Shown: positions 6,391-22,787 of the stretch, in pieces
Layout: each line of letters opens with the position of its first letter
How positions within the stretch are numbered: position 1 is the stretch's first letter
Source: Escherichia coli
GTDB taxonomy: Bacteria > Pseudomonadota > Gammaproteobacteria > Enterobacterales > Enterobacteriaceae
Length of the DNA: 64,000 bases
Assembly: GCF_046105845.1 (NCBI RefSeq)
Contig: NZ_CP151004.1
Direction: 5' to 3' (one strand)
Translations under genes and position numbers: made by a program
The notes under the pieces: model-generated
The model's input: only the letters and a program-made list of their open reading frames with translations
Databases searched by the model: none
Told to the model about the DNA's origin: nothing

Positions 6391-6601
6391 GCGTTCATTA
6401 ATTTGATTTATTTGCATCCATTAGCGCTTTTAACTGCTCCGGCGTAAACGGTGGTTTGCGTCGGTGCAGCATCGCATGGCAATTAGGGCACACAGGAAGT
6501 AAAAAAACAAATGAGATCAAGGTAATATATCTTCACTTGCAGGCTTGAACAGCAGAAAATTTGCGAGCATGATCGCAATTATTTCACTGCCAGGGATATC
6601 A

Positions 6602-7474
6602 ATGGCTTCCAGTAAATCGCTACAGCAGGCAATTGCCAACATAAAAATCTGGCACAAGGGTGAACAGCGCGCGCCGCATAAGCCATTGTTATTGCTATAC
6701 GTATTAGCGGGATACCTGCATGGACATCCGCGCCTTTTCGATTATGGCTCGGAAATCTACGAACCTCTGCACAGTTTACTGGAACGTTTTGGGCCACAGC
6801 GTTCACAGTACCGACCTGATATGCCGTTCTGGCGATTACAAGGCGACGGATTCTGGCAATTACACAATGCCGAGCTTTGCTCAACAGCAGGGAGCAGCCG
6901 ACAACCGCCAGTGAAGGAACTGAACGAATACCACGTTGCAGGCGGTTTCGATGAACAGCACTACGCCCTGGTAACCGGCAATAAAAAACTCATCAATACT
7001 CTGGCGCAACAGATACTCGAAGCGCACTTCACCGAGAGTATTCAGGAAGAAATTGCTGACGAGCTGGGTTTTGATCTCCAGCAAATCCGTAAACAGCGCG
7101 ACCCGTTATTTCGCAAAAATGTATTACGCGCTTATAACTACCAGTGCGCGATATGTGGCTTTAATATGCGCCACGACGACACCACCGTCGCGCTTGAAGC
7201 GGCGCATATAAAATGGAAACAGCACGGCGGTCCTTGTGAAATTCCTAATGGCCTGGCGCTTTGCGCAATTCACCATAAAGCCTTTGATAAAGGATCGATT
7301 GGCCTGGATGAAAATATGCGGGTACTGGTCTCGGATGCGGTAAACGGCGGAGGGATCGTTGAGAAACTATTCTGGGATTTTGACGGGAAAACTATTGCGT
7401 TACCACAGGTGCGTAAAAATTACCCTTTTGAGGGGTTTGTAGAGTGGCATCGGAAAGAGGTTTTTAGGGGGTGA
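6602..7474 (+). CDS. HNH-endonuclease-domain protein with an uncharacterised N-terminal domain (about 290 aa)
   Basis: C-terminal CxxC...HIKW...NGLALCAIHH HNH-like motif; start chosen at ATG 6602 with an AGGGA RBS (the ORF track begins at TTG 6545). Confidence 0.65.
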   Translation: MASSKSLQQAIANIKIWHKGEQRAPHKPLLLLYVLAGYLHGHPRLFDYGSEIYEPLHSLLERFGPQRSQYRPDMPFWRLQGDGFWQLHNAELCSTAGSSRQPPVKELNEYHVAGGFDEQHYALVTGNKKLINTLAQQILEAHFTESIQEEIADELGFDLQQIRKQRDPLFRKNVLRAYNYQCAICGFNMRHDDTTVALEAAHIKWKQHGGPCEIPNGLALCAIHHKAFDKGSIGLDENMRVLVSDAVNGGGIVEKLFWDFDGKTIALPQVRKNYPFEGFVEWHRKEVFRG

Positions 7475-7784: not shown

Positions 7785-10700
7785 TTATAGCTGACGTTGA
7801 TCCAGACTGCTATATATCGCCTTTATTTCATTTTTTACGCCTTCGCCACGGTACACCAAAGACGTATCGTATCGTTGATATTTATCTTCTCGCGCAGCGC
7901 TGAACCAGTTAAAAGATCCAACGCACAACAACTCTTCATCCCTAATCACAATTTTGCTGTGAACGCGATTCACCAATTTTGTAGCAATGCCCATATTATT
8001 GAGCTTTTCGACTGCATCATTTAGAAGATGCAGTTTCTCCTGGCGCTTATCATCATCGATATGCGCAATATTGCAGTTTTTATCCGTTACCACGGTAATA
8101 TCAATACCTCGGGAGCGGGCCAGAGCCATTGACGTCAGAAACCCCGTTTGCTCCACTTTTTGCCAGGATAACCAGGGGGAAATAATCGTGATCTTCTGTT
8201 GAGCTGCGGCCAGAGCATTATTCAAGAATTCATCATGCTGCTCCACACCATGCAACGTTGAAATATGTGTCTGTGCGGAAATTAAATCCTGTCGTTTCTG
8301 AAACTCAAATTGCAACGCATTATTATCTGAAGCAAACAGAAATTTTGCCAATAACCCTCGTGGCGAAGATGCGGGCTGCATCTCAATAAGGTCCATATCG
8401 CCAAAGACCAGAAAACTATCCTTAGCGCGTGAGACAGCAACATTGAGGATACTGCTGTTGCTATCAAGAAACCTGCCATCTTCATGTTTTGAGTAGACTG
8501 GGGAAAAGAGAACAATCGCCCTTTCCGCACCCTGCAAGGAGTGCACAGTCCCCACTGTCAGTGAGCCCTCTTCGTCTTTGTCATTAATCTCCAGCTTACG
8601 CAATGACGTTTTGATGGCATTAACCTGCGCCGAAAATGGCGTCACAACACCAACAACTTTGTACAGAGGTTCCCCGTAATGGCGCTCTATATCATCCTTA
8701 TGTGTCGCCAGCCATGCTGCTATTGTTTCAGCTTCAAGAGGGTTATAACGGCTCCCCCCATTTGGCTTCATGCCTCGGCCATCAATATGCAGATATCCCA
8801 TTGCGGGAAAAATCGTCCCTTTTTCCATCCCTCTTTTAGGCTGCAACTTACCGTTATAGCAAAGTGAGTTACAGTAGCCGATGATGTTATTGAAACAGCG
8901 ACGATGCTCATACAGATACATTCCGCGCTCGAACTTGGGATCATACTGGTAGCGGGAGTTGAACTGGGCAACCTGCATTACGCTGCCAGATGCTGCACTT
9001 TTTCCAGACCTACACACATGGGAATATGTATTTATTAACTCTTCCTGAGTGCCACCAGAAAGAATATTCTCCTCAAGCATATTGCCCATATCAGTAACGG
9101 GTAGACAATTCCAGATTGGAGCTATTTGCTCCGTATCGCCAATCACCAGTGCTTTCTTCGCCAATGCAAAAGAGGCCGCAGCAACCTCCGGGAGTACCTG
9201 CCCTGCTTCATCGACAATCAGTAAATCGGCAAAGTTATATAAATAATTATTATCCGATGTTCTGTCCCCACCAAAAGATTTTCTCCTGTTCATATGGTAA
9301 GGCAACATGTAGCAGGTCATTACCACACAAGGAGTAAGTTTCATTCTTCTTAGCCAACGAGCCTCGGCGATAGTTGTCCCGGTAATTCCTTTTTCTTTTT
9401 GCAGGTTATCAATTGCCGCCATATCCATCAGCCAGCGACCTTCCCAATAATGAGTCGCTAACAAGAACGCTGGAAAACGAATCTGAGTATCGGCAAGCTC
9501 GTCCGCTCCGGCGAGGTTCAGCTCATCGTCTCCCCTGTAGCCCAGAGCATAAGTCAACCCGCGCCATTGTTTTGCTGCTTCCATTTCGCTTCGGGCTATG
9601 TCCTGCGCAAAGTTGATATTCTGTTGGCACGCCGCCTGCTCTTGTTGCGCTTTAGCGATCAAACTATCGATAAATTTATCAATATCTTCGGAACAATTTC
9701 CCTGGAACGCTGTCATTCTTGCGCCGAACGTAGAGTCCAGGAAGAGGTTAATCTGGTAATGGCGTTTAGCACGAACAGCAGGGAGCCATGACAAAAATGC
9801 ATACATAAGCGACTCATCGGCACGGTATTGCTGCCACTGCTTTTTACCTCTGGCTAAAAGTGAAATTTCGTTGCCAATATTGAGAAGAAGTGTGTTTTTG
9901 TCCTGAAGATACTGGTCGAGATTCTCACTGATGACTCGCTGTTCATGGCGGATATCATTGAGTCTGCGCCATGCAGGTTCGATTTGCTGAAGTTGCATAA
10001 CCTGTGAAGTTAAACGTTCATGCAAAAGCGTCACTACATGCTCTGGCGAATTGCACTCTCCAGCTCCAAACGCCGCCTCCGCTTTTTCAAGGTAAAAGGC
10101 CCGGGCTTTTTCCAGATATTCCAGGGATTCAACGCGGTTAAAAAAATCTTCAGTCTGGTATTTCTTCGCTGCCTCAACCTGACGGCTTTTAGACGGAAAA
10201 TAAGCGCCATAGCTTATTACTTCCGGCAACCAACGCCCAGACATTACGCCAAAACCAGTAGAGAAATCTTTTCCAAAGGCTTCAATAATATTGGTGACGG
10301 CCTGATTGTTAGTCGATGTGGCAATAATTACAGGAGGTTCAGTTTGATTAAGTGCGGCTCTTGTCCATTCGGTGGCAATAATAGAAAGCACCAGCGTAGT
10401 TTTACCCGTTCCCGGAGGACCGTTGACAGCGAGCATATCACCCTGCTGTTGAGTCAGATAATGGCTCAGGGCATCGCGCTGCGCCACTGCCAGCGGAAAC
10501 TTATCGCCGGAATGCCCCAGACGTTCGCAGAACATCGCATTCTTAGCGAGAAGTGGCTCCACTGGAGCCATTTCGTTTGAGGCAAAACGCGTTAATAGCG
10601 GAACCTTAACCTGGCTCATCAGAAGATGGTCATACATAGGCAGGATATGAACGCTGGCCCCTACATGCTGGCTAGCTTTAACAATATAACCGTATCCAGC

Positions 10701-11300
10701 CCGTTCGTATGGCTCAGATGTAGCGACCCAATTTCCAGCGACGTTTCTTAAAAGGTTATCTGACTGTTGTAGATAATTTTGCCAATGCTGACGATACCTG
10801 GCATGGCGTTCCGCTTTCTCTTCGTCAGTTTCTTCGTAATGTTCTGGTTCATCTTCATTAATGGTGGCTGTGTTATGCGTGGTTTTGTATTTGTCATATT
10901 GCGCCAACTCACCAATAGAAAAATGACCGGAAGGGAGAGGTTCAAGCAGATCGCGGGGAATAGTGGCTGAAGCGGCAGGAAACAAAAAACCTTCCCTATT
11001 CAGAAGAGCGGAGGTAACCAGTGGCGTGATAATTGCGGGTGCACCTGCCATTTGCTCTTTGCCATGCTTTACTATGCGGTTCCACACTTGGGGCCGTAAC
11101 ACGACTTCAACGGTTTTTACCGACTCCCCTTCACCGTCAAAAAATGCCCGAATAGTCTCGTCATCCAACTGCCCTGCGGTGATATTTATCCATCGAATGA
11201 ATGAATCTGTATCTTTACGTGAAAACGTTCCTTTACCAGATTCGGCGTCAGCTAAGGAGTTGCGCCAGTATGAAGTGAATCCCAATGTATTGCTGTCCAT
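7785..11300 (-). CDS. SF1 (Upf1-like) helicase fused to a C-terminal PLD-family HKD nuclease; Mokosh type II-like architecture
   Basis: Walker A GPPGTGKT (about 10397-10421), Walker B LIVDEAGQ, helicase motif [13 protein letters not shown]-terminal HSKIVIRD...GSFNW (HxKxxxxD...GSxN, near 7960); start taken at MDSNTLGF (11300). Confidence 0.8.
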
Positions 11301-11592
11301 TTTCCATTCCGTGACATAATAGAAATCATTGATTTCATTGATGTAAATATTACTTATGATTAAACATTGTCCACGATGCGAGCACGATCGCAATAAATAT
11401 TGTGCCTGGAGGATGGATTAGATTTTCTGAAAGAGCCGAATCCTTAATAGATAAGCGCAAACATACTTGGTTCGGTATTCTTAAGGGAATTAATATGGAT
11501 TGAACCAGGTGGAAAAAACAGCGGAAAAGATTTGTGTAGCGCGGATTTCAGGCATAAAAAAAGACCTCAGTTGAGGTCTATTTACATACTTT

Positions 11593-11776: not shown

Positions 11777-13352
<1,576 letters not shown>

Positions 13353-13648
13353 TTTATTGATCTCAGGCTCACTCTAGCCATGGATAAAGAGCTTCATGAT
13401 CTAAGCTGACCTGCGGCGAACCTATTCTGCTAGCTGTAACTTTAGAGCGGTGCTCTCGGCGGAAACCATCGGCATGTGTACGCAAGAAAATAGCTGATTT
13501 GCTGTATACTTTGGCTATCACTACGCCAACATTCTCTGCGTATTCAAAAATCTGCCTGACAAAGTTCAGTTTTGTACTGTTTACATGACTCGATGGTTGT
13601 TGATGCTGGTTTTGTCATGTGAACGATAGATAGATGTAAGGCTACTTC

Positions 13649-13685
13649 TAGTCACATGTTCACTTGTGACTATGTAAGCTTACAT
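13649..13685. promoter_or_regulatory. Two adjacent perfect palindromes upstream of the methyltransferase operon (candidate operator)
   Basis: TAGTCACA-N8-TGTGACTA (13649-13672), immediately followed by the 14-bp palindrome ATGTAAGCTTACAT (13672-13685); about 245 bp upstream of the operon start. Confidence 0.3.
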
Positions 13686-13927
13686 ATCCCAGTCAGAGAC
13701 AGCTAATTGAAAAAGAGATATCATCATCAGCAATAGAAGTACAGAGATTGAGAGGCTTTATGAGATCCATTGATGTCACGAGCAATATACTAAATCTGTA
13801 AATTAACACCTTTGTGTTGCATGCTAATGAATTGCCCTTTAATGCAAACAAGTCAGTAGACGCCACAAAGAAAAAGCATGTAAATCTCCATTAAAACATA
13901 TAGATAGAAAGTTAAAAACGAGATAAC

Positions 13928-15718
13928 GTGGAATCGATTACCAAACTTTACCAGACCCCGCTGCCATCTACCCGTACTGGCCCTTTGTATAATGCGTTCT
14001 CATATCCAACAAAGATTTCACCAGAAGCTATAGCGGTTTACATTGCTACGCACACCGAGCCCGGTGCAACAGTGTTAGACGCATTTGCTGGTAGTGGTAC
14101 CACAGGCTTAGCCACTCTGCTCTGTGACCGCCCTACACTCGAAATGAAGCGAATGGCGGAAAGCCTCGGCGCATCGCCAAAGTGGGGACCACGTAATGCA
14201 CAACTTTTTGACATTGGAACATTAGGGTCATTCGTATCTCAGACCATGTGCAATCCTCCTGATCCTGACGAATTTGCAGATGCAGTGAAGGAGCTATGTA
14301 AACAAGCTGAGTTACAATTGGGTTGGTTATACAGTATTAAAGATGCCAATGGCCAAGTAGGCATGCTCCGCCATGCTATTTGGTCTGATGTACTAATCTG
14401 CCCTAACTGTAATACTGAGACCTCACTTTGGGATGCCAGTGTGAAAACTAATCCCATCAAAATGGCTGATTCTTTCATTTGTAAGGGTTGCCAGAAGCTC
14501 GTATCTATTGAAGCTTGTGAAAGAGCCACAGAGACAATCTCTGATGTTTTCGGAAGTACACAGTGCACCAAAAAACGAGTGTTAGCTCGCGTGCATGGAC
14601 GTTGCGGAACAACAAAGTGGCAGAGGCCTCCAACTGATGAAGACTATGAGATTTTGGCTCGCATTGCCGAAATGCAGCCTCCAACATCAGCCCCAAACGT
14701 TGAAATTGAATGGGGAGAACTAAGACGCTCAGGCTATCATTTTGGGATAGATAAGCTCCATCATTTCTATACAAAGCGTAATTTCATTGCGATGGCTTTA
14801 CTAATGGAGCTAGTCAATAACTTTAATGAAAGCGTTCGAGAGGCCTTGCGGCTTCTTGTCCTTAGCTACAATGCGAGCCATTCGACACTCATGACTCGTG
14901 TAGTGCTAAAAAAAGGACAAAATGACTTTGTACTTACGGGCGCTCAAAGTGGCGTGCTCTACATCAGCGGATTTCCAGTTGAAAAAAATCTTATAGAGGG
15001 TATTCGTCGCAAATCTAATTCGTTCATAAACTCGTTCCGGCTTTTATACGGTAGTCAAAGTCAGGTAACTGTTCATAATGTTAGCAGTGAAACTATGCCA
15101 CTCAAGGACAATTCCGTGGATTACGCTTTCACTGACCCTCCTTTCGGCGATTATATCCCATACGCTGAGCTCAATCAGCTCAATGAGCTTTGGCTAGGGC
15201 GTTCCACTGATCGTAAACGTGAAGTCATTGTGAGCCCTTCTCAAGCTAAGGGAGTGAAAGAATACGGCAGTATGATGGGTACAGTATTCAAAGAAATGTC
15301 TAGGGTACTGAAGCATGACGCATTAGCTACCGTAGTATTTCACTCCGCACATTCGGAGATATGGAGAGCTCTAGTTCAAGCTTATACCGAAGCAGGATTC
15401 GCAGTGGAAGCAACAAGCGTACTTGATAAAATTCAGGCAAGTTTTAAACAAGTAGTTTCGAATGTTTCTGTTAAGGGTGACCCTCTATTATTGTTATCTA
15501 AGCGCAGCCAAGAACGTTCAGAGTCTAAGACTTGTGATTTAATCGCCGCTGAGATAATCAATAATGCTAAAAATGATTTGAAACCCGATCCACAGCGTCT
15601 CTATTCACAATTTGTGGGAAGATGTCTCGAGCTGGGCAGCAACGTTACTATGGATGCAAAAACCTTTTATGCACTTGCTCAAACCAACGGTTTATGTGTT
15701 AAAGGAACCAATACGTGA
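13928..15718 (+). CDS. DNA methyltransferase-like protein (N4/N6 beta-class-like core with permuted motif order and a Cys4 zinc-ribbon insert), 596 aa
   Basis: SAM motif I VLDAFAGSGTTG at residues 48-60, preceded by a YPTK context; CPNC...CKGC cysteine cluster; motif IV FTDPPFGDY at residues 401-409 (about 15134); GTG start; stop overlaps the next gene. Confidence 0.8.
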   Translation: MESITKLYQTPLPSTRTGPLYNAFSYPTKISPEAIAVYIATHTEPGATVLDAFAGSGTTGLATLLCDRPTLEMKRMAESLGASPKWGPRNAQLFDIGTLGSFVSQTMCNPPDPDEFADAVKELCKQAELQLGWLYSIKDANGQVGMLRHAIWSDVLICPNCNTETSLWDASVKTNPIKMADSFICKGCQKLVSIEACERATETISDVFGSTQCTKKRVLARVHGRCGTTKWQRPPTDEDYEILARIAEMQPPTSAPNVEIEWGELRRSGYHFGIDKLHHFYTKRNFIAMALLMELVNNFNESVREALRLLVLSYNASHSTLMTRVVLKKGQNDFVLTGAQSGVLYISGFPVEKNLIEGIRRKSNSFINSFRLLYGSQSQVTVHNVSSETMPLKDNSVDYAFTDPPFGDYIPYAELNQLNELWLGRSTDRKREVIVSPSQAKGVKEYGSMMGTVFKEMSRVLKHDALATVVFHSAHSEIWRALVQAYTEAGFAVEATSVLDKIQASFKQVVSNVSVKGDPLLLLSKRSQERSESKTCDLIAAEIINNAKNDLKPDPQRLYSQFVGRCLELGSNVTMDAKTFYALAQTNGLCVKGTNT

Positions 15719-17763
15719 TGAGTAAGCATGATGATAATCATATCGAGATTAGCTGCCCTATAGACTTTGAACGGCGAAAACGGCTGGGGCAGTACTTCAC
15801 GGGTACCGGCCTTGGTCGTTTGCTTGCAGCCCTTGCTCAAGCCGAAAAGGCTGACAGCATCATAGATCCTATGGTGGGATCTGGAGACCTACTTGCCTCT
15901 TGTATAGAGATTGATGCTAAACCTGCTGTAATGGCAGGTATCGAGATAGATATGAAAGTACATAAGGCTTGTTCAAAGCGATTGCCACATGCACATTGTT
16001 TACTTGGTAATGCTTTCGATCCCAGGGTTATTGCACAGTTGCCCGTAAAATCATGGGATTTAGTAATCGCAAATCCCCCTTATGTTCGCTATCAATCCCT
16101 TCGGGATAAAGATCACAATTCAAGCGCATTTCCTTCCGCAATGCAAATTCGAAAAATGTTGCTTCGATCGTTAGAGTTGATAGATACACTCGATAAAGAA
16201 GATAAGCGACTTTTTGCCGAACTCATCCACGGTTATTCTGGTCTATCCGATTTGGCAGTGCCTGCATGGATTCTCTGCGCTGCTTTGGTTGAGAAAGGAG
16301 GACGTTTAGCTCTAATTGTACCTGAGTCGTGGCTTAGCCGAGACTATGCAACAATAGTGAATTACCTTCTGTTTAGATGGTTCGACATAGAATTTGTTGT
16401 AGAGGACGAACATGCGTCATGGTTTGAAGAAGCTCAGATCAAGACAACATTGATCATCGCCAAGAGAATTCAACGTCGCTCTTCCAAACTCTCAATTCCT
16501 GCTGAATATCACTATTGTCACATAGCACTTGCAGCCGCAGCAGCTAACAACAGAAGTCCTATAGGTGGTATTAACTTACCGGTAAAAGAGGCTGAAAAGC
16601 TCTTCGCAAAACAGGCTCAAATCTGGCTCCGAGATGCGTCTAAACATGAAACGGGCCTTGTTAGCACTCGTCCAATTTCTCTAAATCACTCTTGCAAAAA
16701 TATGATCGCGTCAGCTTCCCGCCAAAAGTGGTTTGCCACTATGAGTAAAGCTGATGATGTTTTCAGCAACGAAGACTATATACCTCATGAGATCCACGAA
16801 TGGATTAAAAGGAATACACTTACCCCTTCGTTCGATAGTTTTGAATCTATAGGCATCGCTGTTGGCCAAGGACTTAGGACAGGTGCTAATAATTTTTTTT
16901 ACGCTAGCGGAGAATTAAAAGACGGACACGTCGAGCTATCTTTTTTAGGCCCGTTATCAGGATTGAAAGCTAGAAGCTCAATCAACATCGTTAAGCCCAC
17001 ATTACGCCGCCAATCAGAGCTGCCTAATGGTTTTGTAATTTCTCCTTCTGATGCCAAAAGTTGGACGTTAGACTTAAGAAACTATGTACTGCCCGAAGAT
17101 ATTGGCGATAATGATATATCTTGCACATCATATGAGCTTATGCCAAATGAACTTGTTAAGGTCGTTAGAGCTGCACAAGAAGCAAACTTTGGCACAAGCG
17201 AGAGGCCGCTAAAAATTTGGGAGCTGACGGCGGTCGCACCTAATATCCGACCTGCAACACCTCAGACTCCCGCTCGTCATTGGTATATGTTGCCAAATTT
17301 TACACCTCGCCATCAACCAGATGTATTCTTAGCACGTGTAAATACGCTAACCCCTAAGGCTTATCTAAATCAAGATAGAGCATGCCTTATCGATGCTAAT
17401 TTTTCGACAATGTGGTTATTAGATGATTCAAAATGGTCAGCAACTACAATCCTCGCTTTTATGAATTCTACATGGGTTCAAGCTGTAATCGAGTGTCTGG
17501 GGTCGGTTATGGGCGGCGGGGCGTTGAAAGTTGAGGCCACTCACCTACGCAAAATTCCTGTTCCAAAGTTTAATGATGAGCAAAGAAAAATTCTTTCCGA
17601 TCTTGGAAAAAAACTTGTAAAAGGCACACAGGAAAAACTAGTTATTTTAGAGATAGATAGGATAATAGCTGAAGCTTTGGGCTGTAATGACATGAATATT
17701 GATGAACTTAAACAGATTACGCATTTAGGTCAAACTCGGCGGGCTAAACACAAAGGAAGGTAG
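15715..17763 (+). CDS. N6-adenine DNA methyltransferase, gamma-class (Eco57I/TaqI-like) with a C-terminal TaqI_C-like domain, about 682 aa
   Basis: GQYFTG (motif X), DPMVGSGDLL (motif I), NPPYV (motif IV, about 16072), GLRTGANNFFY (TaqI_C-like GxxTGxNxxF); start overlaps the upstream stop (GTGATGA). Confidence 0.8.
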   Translation: MMSKHDDNHIEISCPIDFERRKRLGQYFTGTGLGRLLAALAQAEKADSIIDPMVGSGDLLASCIEIDAKPAVMAGIEIDMKVHKACSKRLPHAHCLLGNAFDPRVIAQLPVKSWDLVIANPPYVRYQSLRDKDHNSSAFPSAMQIRKMLLRSLELIDTLDKEDKRLFAELIHGYSGLSDLAVPAWILCAALVEKGGRLALIVPESWLSRDYATIVNYLLFRWFDIEFVVEDEHASWFEEAQIKTTLIIAKRIQRRSSKLSIPAEYHYCHIALAAAAANNRSPIGGINLPVKEAEKLFAKQAQIWLRDASKHETGLVSTRPISLNHSCKNMIASASRQKWFATMSKADDVFSNEDYIPHEIHEWIKRNTLTPSFDSFESIGIAVGQGLRTGANNFFYASGELKDGHVELSFLGPLSGLKARSSINIVKPTLRRQSELPNGFVISPSDAKSWTLDLRNYVLPEDIGDNDISCTSYELMPNELVKVVRAAQEANFGTSERPLKIWELTAVAPNIRPATPQTPARHWYMLPNFTPRHQPDVFLARVNTLTPKAYLNQDRACLIDANFSTMWLLDDSKWSATTILAFMNSTWVQAVIECLGSVMGGGALKVEATHLRKIPVPKFNDEQRKILSDLGKKLVKGTQEKLVILEIDRIIAEALGCNDMNIDELKQITHLGQTRRAKHKGR

Positions 17764-17772
17764 CAGAATTTT

Positions 17773-20700
17773 ATGGGAACAATTTACAATGAAACTCAAG
17801 GCTTAGCATTTCTGAAAGAAGCTGTAGCACTTATGGCTGATGGAAAAGCTGAGGATGTTCTGCGACATGCGCTATCTGCCAAACTGCCGCTCATGTTCCC
17901 TAAACAGCCATGGTGGATAAAAGCACATGTTACAGGTACAGAGTCGCTTGCTAAATTTCATGAATTTGGTTCGAAAAAGTATGGATTCGTGGATGTATTA
18001 GTAGGTTCAACTGTTATTGAATATGAAAGAAATTTACAAACACAGGGTTCATTCACACATGGGCTCCATCAGTTAAAACAATATTGTGCTTCTCTTCTTA
18101 ACAGCCACACGCCTTCAGATCTTTTAGTTGGGGTACTATCAGACACGATTCGCTGGTATGCCTTTCGTGTTTCAGACGTAAAAGATATTTCGGCTGTTCC
18201 CGGTGCGACAAGCTACGGCCCTGAACATATTGATTTAGCTGAAATTGAATCCTATGACCTGTCGGCAGCTGGGAGCATTGAGGCCAAAAAGCTTGGTAAA
18301 TTCTTGGTTCGATATCTGGGCCGAGAAGGTGGACGAACTTTAGCAGCATCCATGCTAGCAAAGGATTTAGGCTTTGAAAGCTCATTTTGCGAAACACATC
18401 TCCAGCAAATAGAAAAACTAGTTGATGTAGCTTTTGTAAGCGATCCATCCTACGCTGGGTTAATCACCAAACTCTGGATGGATTTTGTTTCTTACTTGGG
18501 TGGTGAATCTGCTACAGGTAAATTTGATAAAACTTCATATATTGGAGAATTGTACATATTAACGTTAGCCAAGCTTATTTGCGCTAACGTACTTAGCGGT
18601 AAAGGACTTGTTAGCGACGATACGGAACTATTATCAATTCTAGATGGTACATTTTTCAAAGCGAAAGGACTTCCGAATCTTGTAGAATACGACTACTTCG
18701 GTTGGCTTAATAATAGCCCTTATGTTTCCCCCCTTGCCAAAGTAGCACGCGACATTCAGAACGATCTATTAGCTTATGACTTTGAGTCTGCTCCAGCTGA
18801 AGACCTATTTGGTTCTCTAATGGCTCAGCTTGCAACACGCGCTCAACGTCTTCTCCTCGGTCAAGAATGGACACCAGCATGGCTAGCTGCGAAAGTAGTA
18901 AATGAAGCCATCAACAAACTGCCATTAAACCAGCAACCAAGATTCATCGATATGTGTTGCGGTTCAGGCACTATAGTTGTGGAGACAGTAAAAGCGGTCC
19001 AACAACGGTTACTTGCAGCAGGCTCTAAGCCAGGAGAACCTGCTGCGTTAAGCTCATTAGCCACTGCAATTACGGCTTTCGATATAGATCCGCTCGCCGT
19101 AATGTTAGCAAAAGTGGGCTGGGTACTGGCTTGCAAGGACTGGCTTATACCTGGCCATGAAGCCTTAATTCCTGTGTATCACGCAGACTCACTATTTGCC
19201 AATACTCCGGTCACCAAGGTGTTTAGTACAACAGGCGAAGAGCAACGCAAGCTAAAGCTTGACACAGAAGAGGTTGACCTACCACAATTTTTGGTCGAAT
19301 CGAAACATCAATCTCTATTTGATGCACTTTTATCACGTGGTTATGATATGGCCATGAGTAGTGCTGCAGAAGCCAAATCAACGTTAAATAATGATGATAT
19401 TGAGATAATGGTTGATTCGGTAGCTTTGCATTTAGACTGTGTGCTGTCAGCTGAAGAACGCACATCTACATTATTCTTTTGCTGCCAACTGTTACGCGCA
19501 CTTGAAGCATTGCAACGTGCTGGTCGAAACGGCATTTGGTCATTCGTTCTGAAAAATAGCTTTCGCCCAGCCTTAGTGGCGGGCCGTTTTAATGGAATTG
19601 TTACTAACCCACCATGGCTATCGCTAAGCCGCATTGGTAGCAACCCTTATCGTAATGCGTTAAAAGCAAAAGCGGATAAATATGGAATTAAGCCATCTGG
19701 CGCTTCACACCTGCATGTTGAAATCGCGACGACCTTCTTGCTACATGCTATCGATCATTATCTTACATCAGATGGGGTTGTTGCATGTATCTTACCCGAA
19801 ACAGTTCTGAACGGTTCTCATCATGAACCATTCCGGTCATCCAAGTATCTATCAGCTAATAGTCCAGCAGCATTCAATCCACAAGAAATTTGGAAAGTGG
19901 CCAGCCAAACATTTAAAAATGAGGCCATTGTTCTATTCGGTTATAAATCTAAGCCAACATTTCCAGTAGTAAGCCTCTTGGGCCGAAAAGTTAGCAGTTC
20001 ATTTGAAGAATTCTGCGAGTTTCACATCGTTAATTCTGGAGGGAAGTCTGCTTGGGCATTAGACCGCCCTGTAACAGAAGTGTTGAAAGTGGAAACTAAA
20101 GATTCAATTGGACCTCTGTTTAGACAAGGAGCCGATATAATGCCCCGCGGAATTATTTTTCATGATATCAAAAAAAACGGAATATCATGGGATCTTGGTC
20201 CCATTCATCCCGGCTCATCACTATATTTTTTGCGTTCTGAGGGTAAAATTCTTAAGGACTTTTCTTTAAGCGCCTGTGGGGTGAACGATGGAGTGATATA
20301 TGATGTGCTTCTTTCAAAACATTTAGCCCCTTGGGAATTATCTGTAGGTTCAAAGGCCTTATTACCATTCCAGCGTAGTGACGATAAGTGGCTCGCTCGT
20401 ACTGGATCAAATATTGCAGCCCTAGGAGCTTCTACTGCCTCAGCAATCAAAGCTATGTTGACGGCAACCGGTGAAAACATAGAAGATTTCTTTTTACGAA
20501 TCGATACTGATCGCAAGAAATTAACCACCCAGAGTTGGAGCTCAGAAGACTGGGTTGTATTCGGGTCTGCTGGAGGTAAATGGCCATGCGCCGCTTACAC
20601 ACGCGGAGAGCAGATTCCCTGCTCTAAAACGATAATAGACCAAACGCTCTATTGGGGCGTAGTCAAAAGTGAGGATGAAGCGATATACATTACTGCACTA

Positions 20701-21018
20701 ATTAATAGTCCTGCGGTAATGAATGTGATTGTATCCCATCAACCTAGAGGATCCTTTGGGGAACGACACATACACAAGTTGGCTTTCGACCGGACACCTT
20801 CTTATGACCAAACCTCAGCTAAACATCTCGACGTTGTTCGCTCGGCGAAGGATTTGATGAATCAGTGGGCTAATCGTCGCATGGAAGCTGACATATCTCC
20901 CATGCTATCTCCTAGTGTTCACTTAATTACTCGCAGAAAAAAGATTCGTAATGCATTAGAGTCATTGCCTGCATGGGAGCCGTACGTGGCAGCCACTCAA
21001 GCTATATATGAAATTTAA
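17773..21018 (+). CDS. Large multidomain protein (1081 aa): HsdR/MmeI-like N-terminal domain, central gamma-class SAM-methyltransferase core, large C-terminal domain; Type IIG/IIL-like
   Basis: N-terminal D74...E83-x-E85...Q100xxxY104 pattern; GQEWTPAW (motif X-like); FIDMCCGSGT (motif I, about 18943); DIDPLAVMLAKV; NPPW (motif IV, about 19606); RBS AAGGAAGG upstream of ATG 17773. Confidence 0.8.
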   Translation: MGTIYNETQGLAFLKEAVALMADGKAEDVLRHALSAKLPLMFPKQPWWIKAHVTGTESLAKFHEFGSKKYGFVDVLVGSTVIEYERNLQTQGSFTHGLHQLKQYCASLLNSHTPSDLLVGVLSDTIRWYAFRVSDVKDISAVPGATSYGPEHIDLAEIESYDLSAAGSIEAKKLGKFLVRYLGREGGRTLAASMLAKDLGFESSFCETHLQQIEKLVDVAFVSDPSYAGLITKLWMDFVSYLGGESATGKFDKTSYIGELYILTLAKLICANVLSGKGLVSDDTELLSILDGTFFKAKGLPNLVEYDYFGWLNNSPYVSPLAKVARDIQNDLLAYDFESAPAEDLFGSLMAQLATRAQRLLLGQEWTPAWLAAKVVNEAINKLPLNQQPRFIDMCCGSGTIVVETVKAVQQRLLAAGSKPGEPAALSSLATAITAFDIDPLAVMLAKVGWVLACKDWLIPGHEALIPVYHADSLFANTPVTKVFSTTGEEQRKLKLDTEEVDLPQFLVESKHQSLFDALLSRGYDMAMSSAAEAKSTLNNDDIEIMVDSVALHLDCVLSAEERTSTLFFCCQLLRALEALQRAGRNGIWSFVLKNSFRPALVAGRFNGIVTNPPWLSLSRIGSNPYRNALKAKADKYGIKPSGASHLHVEIATTFLLHAIDHYLTSDGVVACILPETVLNGSHHEPFRSSKYLSANSPAAFNPQEIWKVASQTFKNEAIVLFGYKSKPTFPVVSLLGRKVSSSFEEFCEFHIVNSGGKSAWALDRPVTEVLKVETKDSIGPLFRQGADIMPRGIIFHDIKKNGISWDLGPIHPGSSLYFLRSEGKILKDFSLSACGVNDGVIYDVLLSKHLAPWELSVGSKALLPFQRSDDKWLARTGSNIAALGASTASAIKAMLTATGENIEDFFLRIDTDRKKLTTQSWSSEDWVVFGSAGGKWPCAAYTRGEQIPCSKTIIDQTLYWGVVKSEDEAIYITALINSPAVMNVIVSHQPRGSFGERHIHKLAFDRTPSYDQTSAKHLDVVRSAKDLMNQWANRRMEADISPMLSPSVHLITRRKKIRNALESLPAWEPYVAATQAIYEI

Positions 21019-21053
21019 TATAATATTTAGCTTGAAATTTTTTTAAATATTAA

Positions 21054-21088
21054 ATGATGGGAAATTTGTATAATTACCCCATCATTTT
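21054..21088 (+). terminator. Putative rho-independent terminator of the methyltransferase operon
   Basis: Stem ATGATGGG / CCCATCAT with a 16-nt loop, followed by TTTT, 36 bp after the gene-3 stop. Confidence 0.4.
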
Positions 21089-21266
21089 CTCTATAAGTTA
21101 ACTTAATGAAATTCTATTATCTAATAATGTAATGGCATCTCTAATGCTTGTCAGCTTATCCTAATTGAGTAGAGGTTTATGGTATAGACTTGTAGTAACA
21201 GGATAAGATTAATACACGATTGTTATAATTAGTTTGAACAAATCATTATAAGAATCATCAATTTAC

Positions 21267-22512
21267 CTACCCAAACTCAAACGGACTTACTCCTTTCTCC
21301 CGATTCGCATCAAGGTAATCAGCCCACCACTGCAGCATCAACCTCCTCTCCCCCAGATGCTCCGCCTTATGGATGTAGGCAGCCCTAGCAGAGCTACGCT
21401 CCTGATGGCTCATCTGCCGCGACACCGCATTCCTCGACCACAATCCCGATTCAATCAATGAGCTACACGCCATCGTTCTGAAACCATGTCCACATACTTC
21501 CGTTTTCGTGTCATAGCCCATCACTCGCAGAGCCTTGTTAACCGTATTCTCACTCATCGGCTTACGCGGATCGTGATTACCAACGGAGATCAGCTCTCGG
21601 TTTCCATTCATGCTTTTGATCTTTTCCAAAATAGCTAAGGCCTGACGCGACAAGGGAACAAGATGTGGAGTCCTCATCTTCGAACCACGTTGAGAATGCT
21701 TAACACCTTCCAGCGGTTCACGCTCTCCCGGAATCGTCCACATAGCCGTTTTAAAAATCCACTTCTGACCAGCGAGCAAAACGCAACTCGCTTGAACGGA
21801 TGAAAACCAGCAAAGTGAGTTCAACCGCCAGTCGTGTTAACGGCCTGCCAGAATAGTGATCAATGCGGTGAAGTAATTCAGTAATACGGTTAAGTTCCAG
21901 AGCTGCACGGTGCTGTCGTTTTGCCGTAGCAACCGCACCGGCAATCTCTTGTGCTGGGTTATAATCGATTAAGCCGCTCTGAACGGCAAACCGCATAATC
22001 GCAGTAGTTCGCTGTTGCAAACGAGCCGCAACTTCTAGTCGTCCGGAAGATTCCACCGCTTTGACGGGTACAAGAAGATCCCACGTCTTCAATTCAGCAA
22101 TGTTCCGCTTACCGATAGTAGTAAAGAGATTATCTTCGAAACTTTTCAATACACGAGCGCTATGCGATGCAGACCACTTCTGATTGCTGGCGTGCCAGTC
22201 TCTGGCAACCACTTCAAACGTTATCGCCTCTTGATCCTGCTCTATTTTAACTGCTTTCTTGTTCTCACTGGGAGCGACGCCATTAGCTAACAATTTACGG
22301 GCTTCATCCCGGCGTGTCCGGGCATCTGCCAGCGACTCTTGAGGGTATTTCCCCAGCGCCAGTATCTTCTCGTTGCCACCAAAGCGGTAACGTAGACTCC
22401 AGTATTTTGAATCGTTAGGGTGAACCAGCAACACCATGCCTTCGCCATCAGCCAGCTTATAGACTTTTATTTCAGGCTGGGCAGCACGAACCTTCACATA
22501 ACTAAGAGCCAT
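21267..22512 (-). pseudogene. P4-type (tyrosine recombinase) integrase next to leuX, reading frame split by a frameshift
   Basis: Two overlapping ORFs (22512-21751 and 21824-21267) together give an integrase of about 415 aa (N-terminal MALSYVKVRAAQ..., C-terminal catalytic region GHGFRTM...); overlap at 21751-21824. Confidence 0.7.
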
Positions 22513-22702
22513 GATGAGTGTCCTTTCAAAGGTTCTGTGTGGTACAAACATTATCGAACCGGGATATACCCACAGTTGTACCCACATCAGTAAGTTGATG
22601 TAGATTGAATTAGGTTGAGTGAAAAAGTGAGGAAGGCATTGCGGATACTGGATTTCAGACACAAAAAAAGCCGCCCTTGAGCGACTCGATTTGCATACGA
22701 TG

Positions 22703-22787
22703 TGGTGCCGAAGGCCGGACTCGAACCGGCACGTATTTCTACGGTTGATTTTGAATCAACTGCGTCTACCGATTTCGCCACTTCGGC
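22703..22787 (-). tRNA. leuX: tRNA-Leu (CAA), leuX
   Basis: Reverse complement reads GCCGAAGTGGCGAAATCGGTAGACGCAGTTGATTCAAAATCAACCGTAGAAATACGTGCCGGTTCGAGTCCGGCCTTCGGCACCA: cloverleaf with long variable arm, CAA anticodon, CCA end. Confidence 0.95.

What the first reader, a model, noticed from the sequence alone, without database searches (positions are those of the whole stretch)
13928..15718. Gene 1: beta-class-like DNA methyltransferase with permuted motif order and an embedded Cys4 zinc ribbon
The protein opens with the sequence context that normally ends beta-class N4/N6 methyltransferases (YPTK...VLDAFAGSGTTG, residues 26-60). The DPPF catalytic motif lies about 350 residues downstream (FTDPPFGDY). 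Between them is a cysteine cluster (CPNC...CKGC, residues 158-188). This motif order and insertion are unusual for the PF01555-type family, and the gene uses a GTG start with a weak RBS.
Basis: seen in the sequence. Interest (0 to 1): 0.6.

Follow-up and report, generated by a model that had tools for sequence, protein, structure and literature searches.

The report
Zinc-finger DNA methylase of a restriction operon
Gene 1 is an intact DNA methyltransferase whose "swapped" motif order and embedded four-cysteine zinc finger are the known signature of the BREX type-3 (PglXI) methylase clade; here a shortened version is the first of two companion methylases in a three-gene restriction-modification operon on an E. 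coli genomic island, which is fairly ordinary.

Summary
ORF 13928-15718 (+, 596 aa, GTG start) carries YPTK...FAGSGTTG at residues 26-60, CPNC...CKGC at 158-188 and DPPF at 403-406. Pfam splits PF01555 accordingly: model 160-203 at aa 24-67, model 1-111 at aa 397-534.

The architecture is not a one-off. A published analysis describes the same order, a ~250-aa recognition insert between core strands 2 and 3, and a 4-Cys zinc finger for type-3 BREX methylases (PglXI/BrxXI) and DUF1156 methylases (PMC12839542). Gene 1 hits the PADLOC PglXI profile at E=1.8e-116. A genuine PglXI next to PglZ shows the same Pfam split. The four cysteines are invariant down to 27% identity.

Gene 1 is not a PglXI proper. 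It lacks the N-terminal prelude, most of the C-terminal HTH region and any BREX neighbours.

In 79 of 79 related loci from many phyla that retain downstream sequence, a gamma-class N6-methylase (gene 2) follows it directly. In 60 of them a 1081-aa type IIG-like nuclease-methylase fusion (gene 3) comes next. Others carry PLD-type or other nucleases. Gene1-gene2 fusions exist.

Best reading: an M1-M2-RM operon like BpuSI, with gene 1 protecting one strand of an asymmetric site. Interest is low to moderate.

The parts
13928..15718 (+). Gene 1 CDS (596 aa, GTG start, TGA stop): short-form PglXI-like DNA amino-methyltransferase, M1 of the operon
   Evidence: ORF. Same CDS in RefSeq. PADLOC PglXI E=1.8e-116. 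Pfam PF01555 in two permuted pieces. AF2 pLDDT 88.9.
13997..14128 (+). aa 24-67: YPTK element, helix 32-42, strand beta1 (48-51) and FAGSGTTG AdoMet loop (motif X/I region)
   Evidence: PF01555 model 160-203, E=6.2e-7. Aligns to the C-terminal ends of DpnA, CcrM and RsrI. T28, D51, G55, T59 invariant in both alignments; Y26 and G46 invariant in A1 and >=90% in A2.
14195..14212 (+). aa 90-95: strand beta2 ending in D95 (motif II acidic residue, inferred AdoMet ribose contact)
   Evidence: Strand E90-94 in the model. D95 invariant in A2. The role is inferred from general MTase knowledge.
14264..15052 (+). aa 113-375: ~260-residue alpha+beta insert between beta2/alphaB and beta3, the predicted target-recognition domain
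   Evidence: Secondary structure of the model. Corresponds to the insert-TRD described for BrxXI (PMC12839542). No solved structure matches it.
14399..14491 (+). aa 158-188: CPNC-x23-CKGC four-cysteine zinc ribbon inside the insert
   Evidence: C158, C161, C185, C188 invariant in A1 and A2. Each CxxC follows a beta-strand in the model (E144-157, E182-184). Weak Pfam zinc-ribbon hits.
15062..15499 (+). aa 379-524: catalytic half of the Rossmann fold. beta3 (379-383), beta4 (397-402), DPPF motif IV (403-406; nt 15134-15145), beta5-beta7
   Evidence: PF01555 model 1-111 at aa 397-534. D403 P404 P405 invariant, F406 invariant or nearly so. Aligns to the CcrM N-terminus IHGDC...ADPPY. Strands.
15533..15697 (+). 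aa 536-590: small C-terminal helical domain, equivalent to only the first part of the PglXI C-terminal region
   Evidence: Helices 536-547, 555-568, 577-586. Alignment A2 shows the long forms continue for about 300 further residues that gene 1 lacks.
15715..17763 (+). Gene 2 (682 aa from GTG 15715; RefSeq starts at ATG 15718, overlapping the gene 1 stop as TGATG): gamma-class N6-adenine methyltransferase (NPPY) with Eco57I-type and TaqI_C-like regions, M2 of the operon
   Evidence: Pfam N6_Mtase and Eco57I. Same strand and immediately downstream of the gene 1 homologue in 79/79 loci. Fused to gene 1 in P0122.
17773..21018 (+). Gene 3 (1081 aa): type IIG/IIL-like restriction-modification fusion. 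N-terminal PD-(D/E)xK-fold nuclease plus connector (aa 1-~330; D74, E83, E85 at nt 17992-18027) and gamma-class N6-MTase (NPPW, Eco57I domain aa 433-690)

Best explanation
Gene 1 encodes an active, AdoMet-dependent DNA amino-methyltransferase, most likely N6-adenine. It belongs to the PglXI/BrxXI-like structural clade.

Its Rossmann fold is written in the ordinary linear order:
- helix X, then beta1 with the FAGSG AdoMet loop, then beta2 with D95;
- a ~260-residue alpha+beta insert (aa ~113-375);
- beta3, then beta4 with the DPPF catalytic loop, then beta5-7.

The insert is the target-recognition domain. A structural CxxC-x23-CxxC zinc ribbon braces it. The insert is inferred to read the DNA sequence while the target base is flipped into the DPPF pocket.

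The protein is a shortened paralogue of the BREX methylase, without its N-terminal prelude and without most of its C-terminal HTH region. It does not work in BREX.

It is the first gene of a translationally coupled three-gene operon: M1 (gene 1), M2 (gene 2, gamma-class N6A methylase) and RM (gene 3, type IIG-like nuclease-methylase fusion). This is the organisation known from BpuSI and BspLU11III.

Inferred mechanism: gene 3 recognises an asymmetric site and cuts unmodified DNA. M1 and M2 each modify one strand of that site to protect the host, because the RM enzyme's own methylase is insufficient.

Shown here: sequence and fold anatomy, conservation, synteny, gene fusion.
Inferred: enzymatic activity, base and strand specificity, zinc binding, restriction.
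For: Anatomy:
- Pfam split of PF01555.
- AF2 model pLDDT 88.9 with beta1 48-51, beta2 90-94, insert, beta3 379-383, beta4 397-402.

Clade:
- PADLOC PglXI E=1.8e-116 over profile positions 110-616 of 919.
- Collinear alignment with nine long forms (eight scored >1000 bits and one 878 bits on the PglXI profile), with the same four invariant Cys.
- A PglXI encoded next to PglZ has the same Pfam split.
- The published description of this architecture is in PMC12839542.

Activity: D51, G55, T59, D95 and D403-P404-P405 are invariant (D95 in A2).

Operon:
- TGATG stop/start overlap with gene 2 and a 9-nt gap to gene 3.
- Gene 2 homologue directly downstream in 79/79 loci from Proteobacteria, Firmicutes, Bacteroidota, Actinobacteria, Chloroflexi, Planctomycetes and others.
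- Gene 3 homologue follows in 60 of them.
- Identities of the three proteins co-vary, r = 0.94-0.96.
- M1-M2 fusion proteins P0122 and P0123, with P0122 followed by a 1080-aa gene (inferred from its length and position to be the gene 3 homologue; not aligned).

Restriction partner:
- Where gene 3 is absent, the partner is a ~360-aa HKD/PLD-type protein or a type II REase-like protein.

[quoted passage not shown] BpuSI has M1, M2 and the RM fusion, and could not be cloned without M1 and M2 (PMC3185434).
Against: - No experiment or methylome was available. Activity, target base, recognition sequence and strand assignment are all inferred.
- DPPF favours adenine, but some N4-cytosine enzymes also carry D/S-PP-Y/F.
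- Zinc binding is inferred from cysteine invariance and predicted hairpins only. I could not inspect model coordinates.
- Gene 3's nuclease has E-x-E rather than E-x-K at the third catalytic position. BamHI-like variants are active, but activity here is not shown.
- The GTG start with a weak Shine-Dalgarno may mean low expression in E. coli.
- The island is rare (4 of 5426 complete E. coli genomes) and partly IS-ridden upstream.
- Three N6A-type methylase domains for one site are more than strictly needed. The division of labour between M1, M2 and the RM methylase is therefore open.
Confidence: 0.7

Rival explanations
1. Gene 1 and gene 2 are not two independent strand-specific methylases. They form one obligate heteromeric modification enzyme, in which the zinc-finger insert of gene 1 supplies or shares the sequence specificity for both catalytic centres.
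For: Strict adjacency in 79/79 loci and co-varying divergence. Natural single-chain fusions P0122 and P0123. Stop/start overlap TGATG. The pair stays together while the nuclease partner changes.
Against: Gene 2 has its own TaqI_C-like or M_Eco57I_C specificity region. Fused type IIS methylases generally act as two independent domains (established knowledge of the FokI and Alw26I families). No interaction data exist.
Confidence: 0.2
2. Gene 1 is an N4-cytosine rather than an N6-adenine methyltransferase, giving the operon mixed m4C/m6A protection as in several type IIS systems.
For: The only Pfam family hit is the mixed N6/N4 family PF01555. A weak PDB sequence hit to an N4-cytosine MTase, 8s9n. 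BpuSI-type operons combine methylases of different base specificity.
Against: Motif IV is DPPF with an invariant Asp, whereas N4C enzymes typically have SPP(Y/F) (established motif knowledge). The nearest relatives, PglXI/BrxXI, are described as N6-adenine enzymes. The best PDB sequence hits are adenine enzymes, DpnA and CcrM.
Confidence: 0.12
3. The gene is a truncated remnant of a type-3 BREX system (a decayed PglXI), or a Mod-like subunit working with the nearby YjhR helicase (7785-11393, minus strand).
For: Strong PglXI profile hit. COG1743 methylases have been proposed as Mod-like partners of helicase-nucleases (PMC1874659; PMC7641849). A large SF1 helicase lies 2.5 kb upstream.
Against: The 596-aa length and both termini are conserved in 80 loci across phyla, so this is not a local truncation. 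No PglZ, BrxC or BrxHII is annotated in the island. In E. coli W284 the same cassette sits next to AlpA and the integrase, without the helicase. An IS3 element and a pseudogene separate the helicase from gene 1.
Confidence: 0.03
4. Annotation artefact: a wrong start codon, or two decayed ORFs read through, creating a false permuted order.
For: GTG start with a weak Shine-Dalgarno. Many homologues are called about 27 aa longer.
Against: In-frame stop at 13913-13915. The extra N-terminal residues of the 623-aa homologues are not conserved, and conservation begins at residue ~6. The same order appears in all homologues and in bona fide PglXI. Confident single-chain fold.
Confidence: 0.01

Closest known systems
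PglXI / BrxXI, the methyltransferase of type-3 BREX (PADLOC PDLC02541; described in PMC12839542)
   Same: Collinear over aa 15-519 at roughly 27-37% identity to long-form relatives. Same order: motif X/I, beta2, ~250-aa insert-TRD, beta3, DPP(F/Y). Same four invariant cysteines. Same split match to PF01555.
   Different: Gene 1 scores 388 bits on the profile against 878 to >1400 for the long forms tested. It lacks the ~100-aa N-terminal prelude and about 300 aa of C-terminal HTH region. It is never next to PglZ or other BREX genes in the loci examined, but next to a gamma-class methylase and a nuclease.
[quoted passage not shown]
   Same: Homologous catalytic half and insert (NF042963 E=1.2e-10 over aa 245-543; PDLC02189 E=2e-10). 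A Zn-finger-bearing nested TRD according to PMC12839542.
   Different: No DUF1156 N-terminal domain was detected. The score of 40 bits is far below the curated cutoff of 1000. No DUF499 or SNF2 helicase-nuclease partners.
Beta-class N6/N4 methyltransferases (PF01555: RsrI, CcrM, DpnA, type III Mod)
   Same: The only Pfam family matched. The YPTK...FxGSGTT and DPP(Y/F) blocks are recognisably of this type.
   Different: The two blocks are in the opposite order, and the TRD is a different, Zn-containing insert. No beta-class PDB entry aligns over both halves.
Alpha-class amino-methyltransferases (Dam, DpnM, T4 Dam type)
   Same: Same topological order: AdoMet region, TRD, catalytic region. PMC12839542 draws the same parallel.
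   Different: No sequence match to the alpha-class Pfam family was reported. The insert has no match among solved structures.
M1-M2-RM operons of type IIG enzymes (BpuSI, BsmFI, BspLU11III; also Eco57I with M.Eco57I)
   Same: Same gene logic: two companion methylases plus a nuclease-methylase-TRD fusion in one operon. The gene 3 N-terminus is structurally closest to BpuSI and DrdV. Gene 2 carries Eco57I-type domains.
   Different: BpuSI's companions are an amino-MTase and a C5-MTase of ordinary architecture. Here M1 is PglXI-like with a Zn-finger TRD, and all three methylase domains look adenine-specific. The gene 3 nuclease has D-x8-E-x-E rather than PD-x15-ExK.

Membership tests
PF01555 N6_N4_Mtase (beta class) | Significant match to the family HMM | tested here: met
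   Two partial matches: model 160-203 (E=6.2e-7) and model 1-111 (E=0.013). Homologues carry a precomputed PF01555 annotation.
PF01555 N6_N4_Mtase (beta class) | Beta-class order: catalytic motif IV first, AdoMet motif I last, TRD between | tested here: not met
   Motif I region at aa 24-67, motif IV at aa 403-406. Strand order beta1, beta2, insert, beta3, beta4 in the model.
PglXI/BrxXI (type-3 BREX methyltransferase) | Significant match to the PglXI profile | tested here: met
   PDLC02541 E=1.8e-116, 388 bits, but only profile positions 110-616 of 919. The long forms tested score 878 to >1400 bits.
PglXI/BrxXI (type-3 BREX methyltransferase) | ~250-aa insert-TRD between core strands 2 and 3 with a conserved 4-Cys Zn finger | tested here: met
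   Insert at aa ~113-375. C158, C161, C185, C188 invariant and aligned with the PglXI cysteines. Feature as defined in PMC12839542.
PglXI/BrxXI (type-3 BREX methyltransferase) | C-terminal ~280-300-aa triad of HTH-like domains | tested here: not met
   The protein ends at aa 596. Only about 60 aa of helices follow the core. Long forms extend about 300 aa further in A2.
PglXI/BrxXI (type-3 BREX methyltransferase) | N-terminal alpha+beta prelude before the MTase core | tested here: not met
   The gene 1 core starts at residue ~6. Long forms have about 100 extra residues with a conserved LSDPPYYTACPNP block. An in-frame stop excludes an upstream extension.
PglXI/BrxXI (type-3 BREX methyltransferase) | Encoded with BREX core genes (PglZ, BrxC, BrxHII ...) | tested here: not met
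   No such genes in the island annotation. 79/79 related loci have the gene 2 type neighbour instead. As a control, PglXI P0175 is next to PglZ.
DUF1156 / COG1743 anti-phage methylase | N-terminal DUF1156 domain and a score above the curated cutoff | tested here: not met
   NF042963 scores 40.2 bits against a cutoff of 1000. No DUF1156 hit in Pfam.
Alpha-class amino-methyltransferases | Order: AdoMet-binding region, TRD, catalytic region | tested here: met
   The same parallel is drawn in PMC12839542.
Alpha-class amino-methyltransferases | Sequence membership of the Dam/DpnM family (PF02086) | tested here: not met
   PF02086 is not among the Pfam hits, even at E<=10.
Type IIG R-M system with companion methylases (BpuSI type) | Operon of one or two methylases plus a nuclease-methylase-TRD fusion | tested here: met
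   Gene order and coupling. The gene 3 nuclease/connector resembles BpuSI and DrdV, with an Eco57I methylase domain. Definition from PMC3185434.
Type IIG R-M system with companion methylases (BpuSI type) | Demonstrated site-specific cleavage blocked by the companion methylation | not testable with these tools
   Needs enzymology or methylome data.
Zinc ribbon | Two CxxC knuckles on beta-hairpins coordinating one Zn | tested here: inconclusive
   Invariant CxxC-x23-CxxC. Predicted strands flank both knuckles. Pfam zinc-ribbon hits are only weak, E 0.2-0.7. Metal binding is not testable here.

The most novel reading that the evidence does not exclude
The short-form, Zn-finger methylase and its gamma-class partner form a fixed two-methylase 'modification cassette'. 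This cassette has been combined with at least three or four unrelated nuclease types: a type IIG-like RM fusion, an HKD/PLD nuclease, a type II REase-like protein plus a second gene, and ~1166-aa proteins of unknown family.

If so, the nested Zn-finger TRD that was reported to have no homologues outside BREX is in fact shared between BREX-3 and classical restriction-modification. That would point to recruitment of the BREX-3 methylase from (or into) type IIS/IIG R-M systems. The pair might also act as one heteromeric enzyme with a recognition mode not yet seen in any solved methyltransferase structure.
Probability: 0.4. Interest if true: 0.45.

Novelty: new variant of a known kind. Interest (0 to 1): 0.3.

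Why it matters
The practical value is modest.

First, it corrects a tempting misreading. The "permuted" order is a clade signature, not a local oddity.

Second, it shows that the PglXI-type methylase core with its zinc-finger recognition insert is not confined to BREX and BREX-related systems, contrary to what the one published structural analysis found. It also serves as a companion methylase in a widespread but uncharacterised R-M family with interchangeable nucleases.

Third, no solved structure covers this insert. A short, 596-aa, stand-alone version may therefore be a more tractable subject than the 900-aa BREX enzyme for learning how this recognition domain reads DNA.

Fourth, the system is a candidate source of a new asymmetric-site restriction enzyme and methylase specificities.

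Tried and rejected
1. PDB sequence search with gene 1. It found only weak matches of aa 25-80 to the C-terminal ends of beta-class enzymes and no full-length relative.

3. The idea that the conserved 'LSDPPYYTACPNP' block at the N-terminus of long-form PglXI is a vestigial motif IV left by a duplication-and-truncation permutation. Pfam aligns that region to PF01555 model positions ~96 onward, not to motif IV (positions 1-10). The idea is not supported.

4. Promoter and terminator scan of 13300-21400. It found fewer sites than in shuffled sequence and is uninformative.

5. PDB sequence search with gene 3 gave no hit. The nuclease assignment had to come from structure prediction.

6. YjhR helicase as a Res-like partner. 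Rejected because the cassette occurs without it in E. coli W284 and in other phyla.

7. Plasmid search. Only 12 plasmid records hold a relative, and only one is above 31% identity (58%, Hymenobacter). The family is mainly chromosomal or island-borne in that collection.

8. Literature search for a characterised short-form enzyme. The terms PglXI, DUF1156, COG1743 and 'methylase containing a Zn-ribbon' found none.
Full report
**1. Where the window is**

The window is E. coli chromosome. Flanking genes are fimB/fimE-type invertases, nanC/nanM, ahr and the idn genes. tRNA-Leu(CAA), leuX, lies at 22703-22787 on the minus strand, next to a split P4-type integrase (21267-22662).

The finding therefore sits in a leuX-integrated island. 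G+C is 42-45% over genes 1-3, against about 50% in the core genes on the ahr/idn side beyond leuX.

Megablast finds the 7.6-kb cassette in only 4 of 5426 complete E. coli genomes. In strain W284 the same three genes lie directly between an AlpA regulator and an intact integrase, without the IS elements and helicase seen here.

**2. The observation**

ORF 13928-15718 (+) encodes 596 aa from a GTG. RefSeq annotates the identical CDS as 'DNA methyltransferase'. An in-frame TAA at 13913-13915 leaves GTG 13928 as the only canonical start. The upstream GAGA is a weak Shine-Dalgarno.

Pfam matches PF01555 twice, in reversed order:
- model 160-203 at aa 24-67 (E=6.2e-7);
- model 1-111 at aa 397-534 (E=0.013).

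PDB sequence hits show the same thing. Residues 25-80 align with the C-terminal ends of DpnA, CcrM and RsrI, and residues 382-407 align with the N-terminus of CcrM.

Many homologues are annotated at 623 aa, but their extra ~27 N-terminal residues are not conserved. Conservation begins at residue ~6.

**3. Conservation and fold**

The family is large:
- 2293 proteins at E<=1e-5 in the word-indexed search;
- 2842 cluster representatives (clusters at 50% identity) at E<=1e-3 in the exhaustive search.

In 20 short-form sequences down to 30% identity, C158, C161, C185 and C188 are invariant. So are Y26, T28, G46, D51, G55, T59 and D403-P404-P405. The other nine cysteines of the protein vary.

AlphaFold2 on this alignment gives a confident single chain, pLDDT 88.9 and pTM 0.88. 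Its elements in order are:
- helix 32-42;
- beta1 48-51, followed by the FAGSGTTG loop;
- beta2 90-94 (D95);
- an alpha+beta insert spanning about 113-375, in which each CxxC follows a strand;
- beta3 379-383;
- beta4 397-402, followed by DPPF;
- the remaining strands, and a small helical tail at 536-586.

**4. It is a known architecture**

The best library hit is PADLOC PglXI, the type-3 BREX methylase: E=1.8e-116 over aa 15-519 against profile positions 110-616 of 919. There are weaker hits to DUF1156 anti-phage methylases.

PMC12839542 (NAR 2026) describes BrxXI/PglXI and the DUF1156 'BR-MTases' as follows:
- a ~250-residue insert between core strands 2 and 3;
[quoted passage not shown] - a C-terminal triad of HTH domains.

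I verified this independently. Long relatives of 803-997 aa score 878 to >1400 bits on the PglXI profile. They align collinearly with gene 1 and share the four invariant cysteines. One of them, P0175, is encoded next to PglZ and shows the same split Pfam match: model 96-201 at aa 56-158 and model 1-110 at aa 513-645.

[quoted passage not shown] From my own knowledge it is the name of COG1743. COG1743 is cited as a methyltransferase partner of helicase-nucleases.

**5. It is not a PglXI proper**

Gene 1 lacks the ~100-aa N-terminal prelude and about 300 aa of the C-terminal region. It scores 388 bits on the PglXI profile, against 878 to >1400 for the long forms tested. It has no BREX neighbours.

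The short form is a family in its own right. A scan of one genome per species returned 80 loci with full-length ~580-aa matches. They come from Proteobacteria, Firmicutes, Bacteroidota, Actinobacteria, Chloroflexi, Planctomycetes, Elusimicrobia and others.

**6. Context and mechanism**

The gene 1 stop overlaps the RefSeq start of gene 2 (TGATG at 15716-15720). Gene 3 starts 9 nt after gene 2.

Gene 2 (682 aa) is a gamma-class N6A methylase. It has NPPY, Pfam N6_Mtase and Eco57I domains, and a weak TaqI_C hit. The Piscinibacter orthologue carries M_Eco57I_C.

Across the fetched loci:
- the gene 2 homologue is on the same strand, immediately downstream, in 79 of 79;
- the gene 3 homologue follows in 60;
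- the identities of the three proteins to the E. coli ones correlate at r = 0.94-0.96.

Where gene 3 is missing, the neighbour is one of the following:
- a ~355-375-aa protein with an HPK...GSANLT (HKD/PLD) motif;
- a type II REase-like 556-aa protein plus a 492-aa protein;
- a ~1166-aa protein of unknown family.

Two cluster representatives, P0122 and P0123, are single-chain gene1-gene2 fusions. P0122 is followed by a 1080-aa gene, inferred from length and position to be the gene 3 homologue.

[quoted passage not shown] BpuSI has M1, M2 and the RM fusion, and the fusion could not be cloned without M1 and M2 (PMC3185434).

I therefore read the locus as an M1-M2-RM restriction-modification operon. 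Gene 1 is M1 and most likely methylates adenine (DPPF; adenine-specific relatives) on one strand of an asymmetric site. Its zinc-braced insert is the recognition module.

Shown: anatomy, conservation, synteny and fusion. Inferred: catalysis, base, strand, zinc binding and restriction.

**7. Rivals**

- An obligate M1-M2 heteromer. This is plausible given the fusions and strict adjacency (0.2).
- N4-cytosine specificity (0.12).
- A decayed BREX remnant or a Mod partner of YjhR (0.03).
- An annotation artefact (0.01).

**8. Novelty and verdict**

What is not in the literature I could search is the short form itself. It lacks both terminal extensions, is strictly paired with a gamma-class methylase, and works with interchangeable nucleases outside BREX. 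This contradicts the statement in PMC12839542 that the insert-TRD has no homologues outside BREX systems.

That makes it a new variant of a known kind, of low to moderate interest (0.3). It may be useful as a compact model for a recognition domain that has no solved structure, and as a candidate new R-M specificity.

Noticed in passing
window 17773-21018 (gene 3), catalytic residues at 17992-18027: The type IIG-like RM fusion has an invariant D74-x8-E83-Y-E85 nuclease motif (E-x-E, not E-x-K). The residue after E85 varies (K/R/S/A/T/G) among 21 homologues. Its N-terminal fold is closest to BpuSI and DrdV.
   Followed up: yes
L010 6187-7317; L050 7274-8353; L067 13741-14844; L047 4716-5777(-); L054 7480-8553(-); L064 13926-15014(-): In loci that lack a gene 3 homologue, the gene1-gene2 pair is followed by a ~355-375-aa protein with an HPK...GSANLT (HKD/PLD-nuclease) motif, reminiscent of BfiI-type type IIS endonucleases. 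Other loci have a type II REase-like 556-aa plus 492-aa pair (L060, L074, L079) or a ~1166-aa protein with no family hit (L031, L038).
   Followed up: partly
P0122 (L084 7001-10846) and P0123: Natural single-chain fusions of the gene 1 type and gene 2 type methylases (1281 and 1263 aa). P0122 is followed by a 1080-aa gene that is presumably the gene 3 homologue. P0146-P0148 (~1300-1346 aa) appear to carry two tandem copies of the permuted methylase (PADLOC PDLC03312).
   Followed up: partly
Alignment A2, N-termini of PglXI long forms (e.g. P0175 aa ~56-70): A conserved 'LSDPPYYTACPNP' block, a DPPY-like string about 450 residues before the real catalytic DPPF. Pfam aligns this region to PF01555 model positions ~96+, not to motif IV, so a 'vestigial motif IV' reading is not supported. 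Its role is unexplained.
   Followed up: partly
window 6545-7474 (+) and 7785-11393 (-): Other defence-type genes lie in the same leuX island: a phosphorothioated-DNA-binding HNH restriction endonuclease (NF045808, E=1.4e-131) and the 1202-aa SF1 helicase YjhR. The matching RefSeq record also has an HNH endonuclease just upstream.
   Followed up: no
window 11777-12195 (-) and 12131-13344 (+): A truncated, frameshifted restriction-endonuclease pseudogene (Mrr-like C-terminus) abuts an IS3-family element (orfA 12131-12478, orfB to 13344). The IS separates the helicase block from the methylase operon. The nearly identical island in strain AF16 carries additional IS110 and IS100 copies.
   Followed up: no
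window 21267-22662 (-) and 22703-22787 (-): The P4-type integrase next to tRNA-Leu(CAA) leuX is split into two overlapping ORFs (frameshift), so the island is probably immobilised here. It is intact in E. coli W284 (L002 16768-18012).
   Followed up: no
L003 17242-20350 (Piscinibacter sakaiensis): An AAA_21 ATPase plus UvrD-helicase gene pair (Gabija-like) lies directly after the three-gene cassette. The cassette therefore sits in a defence island there too.
   Followed up: no
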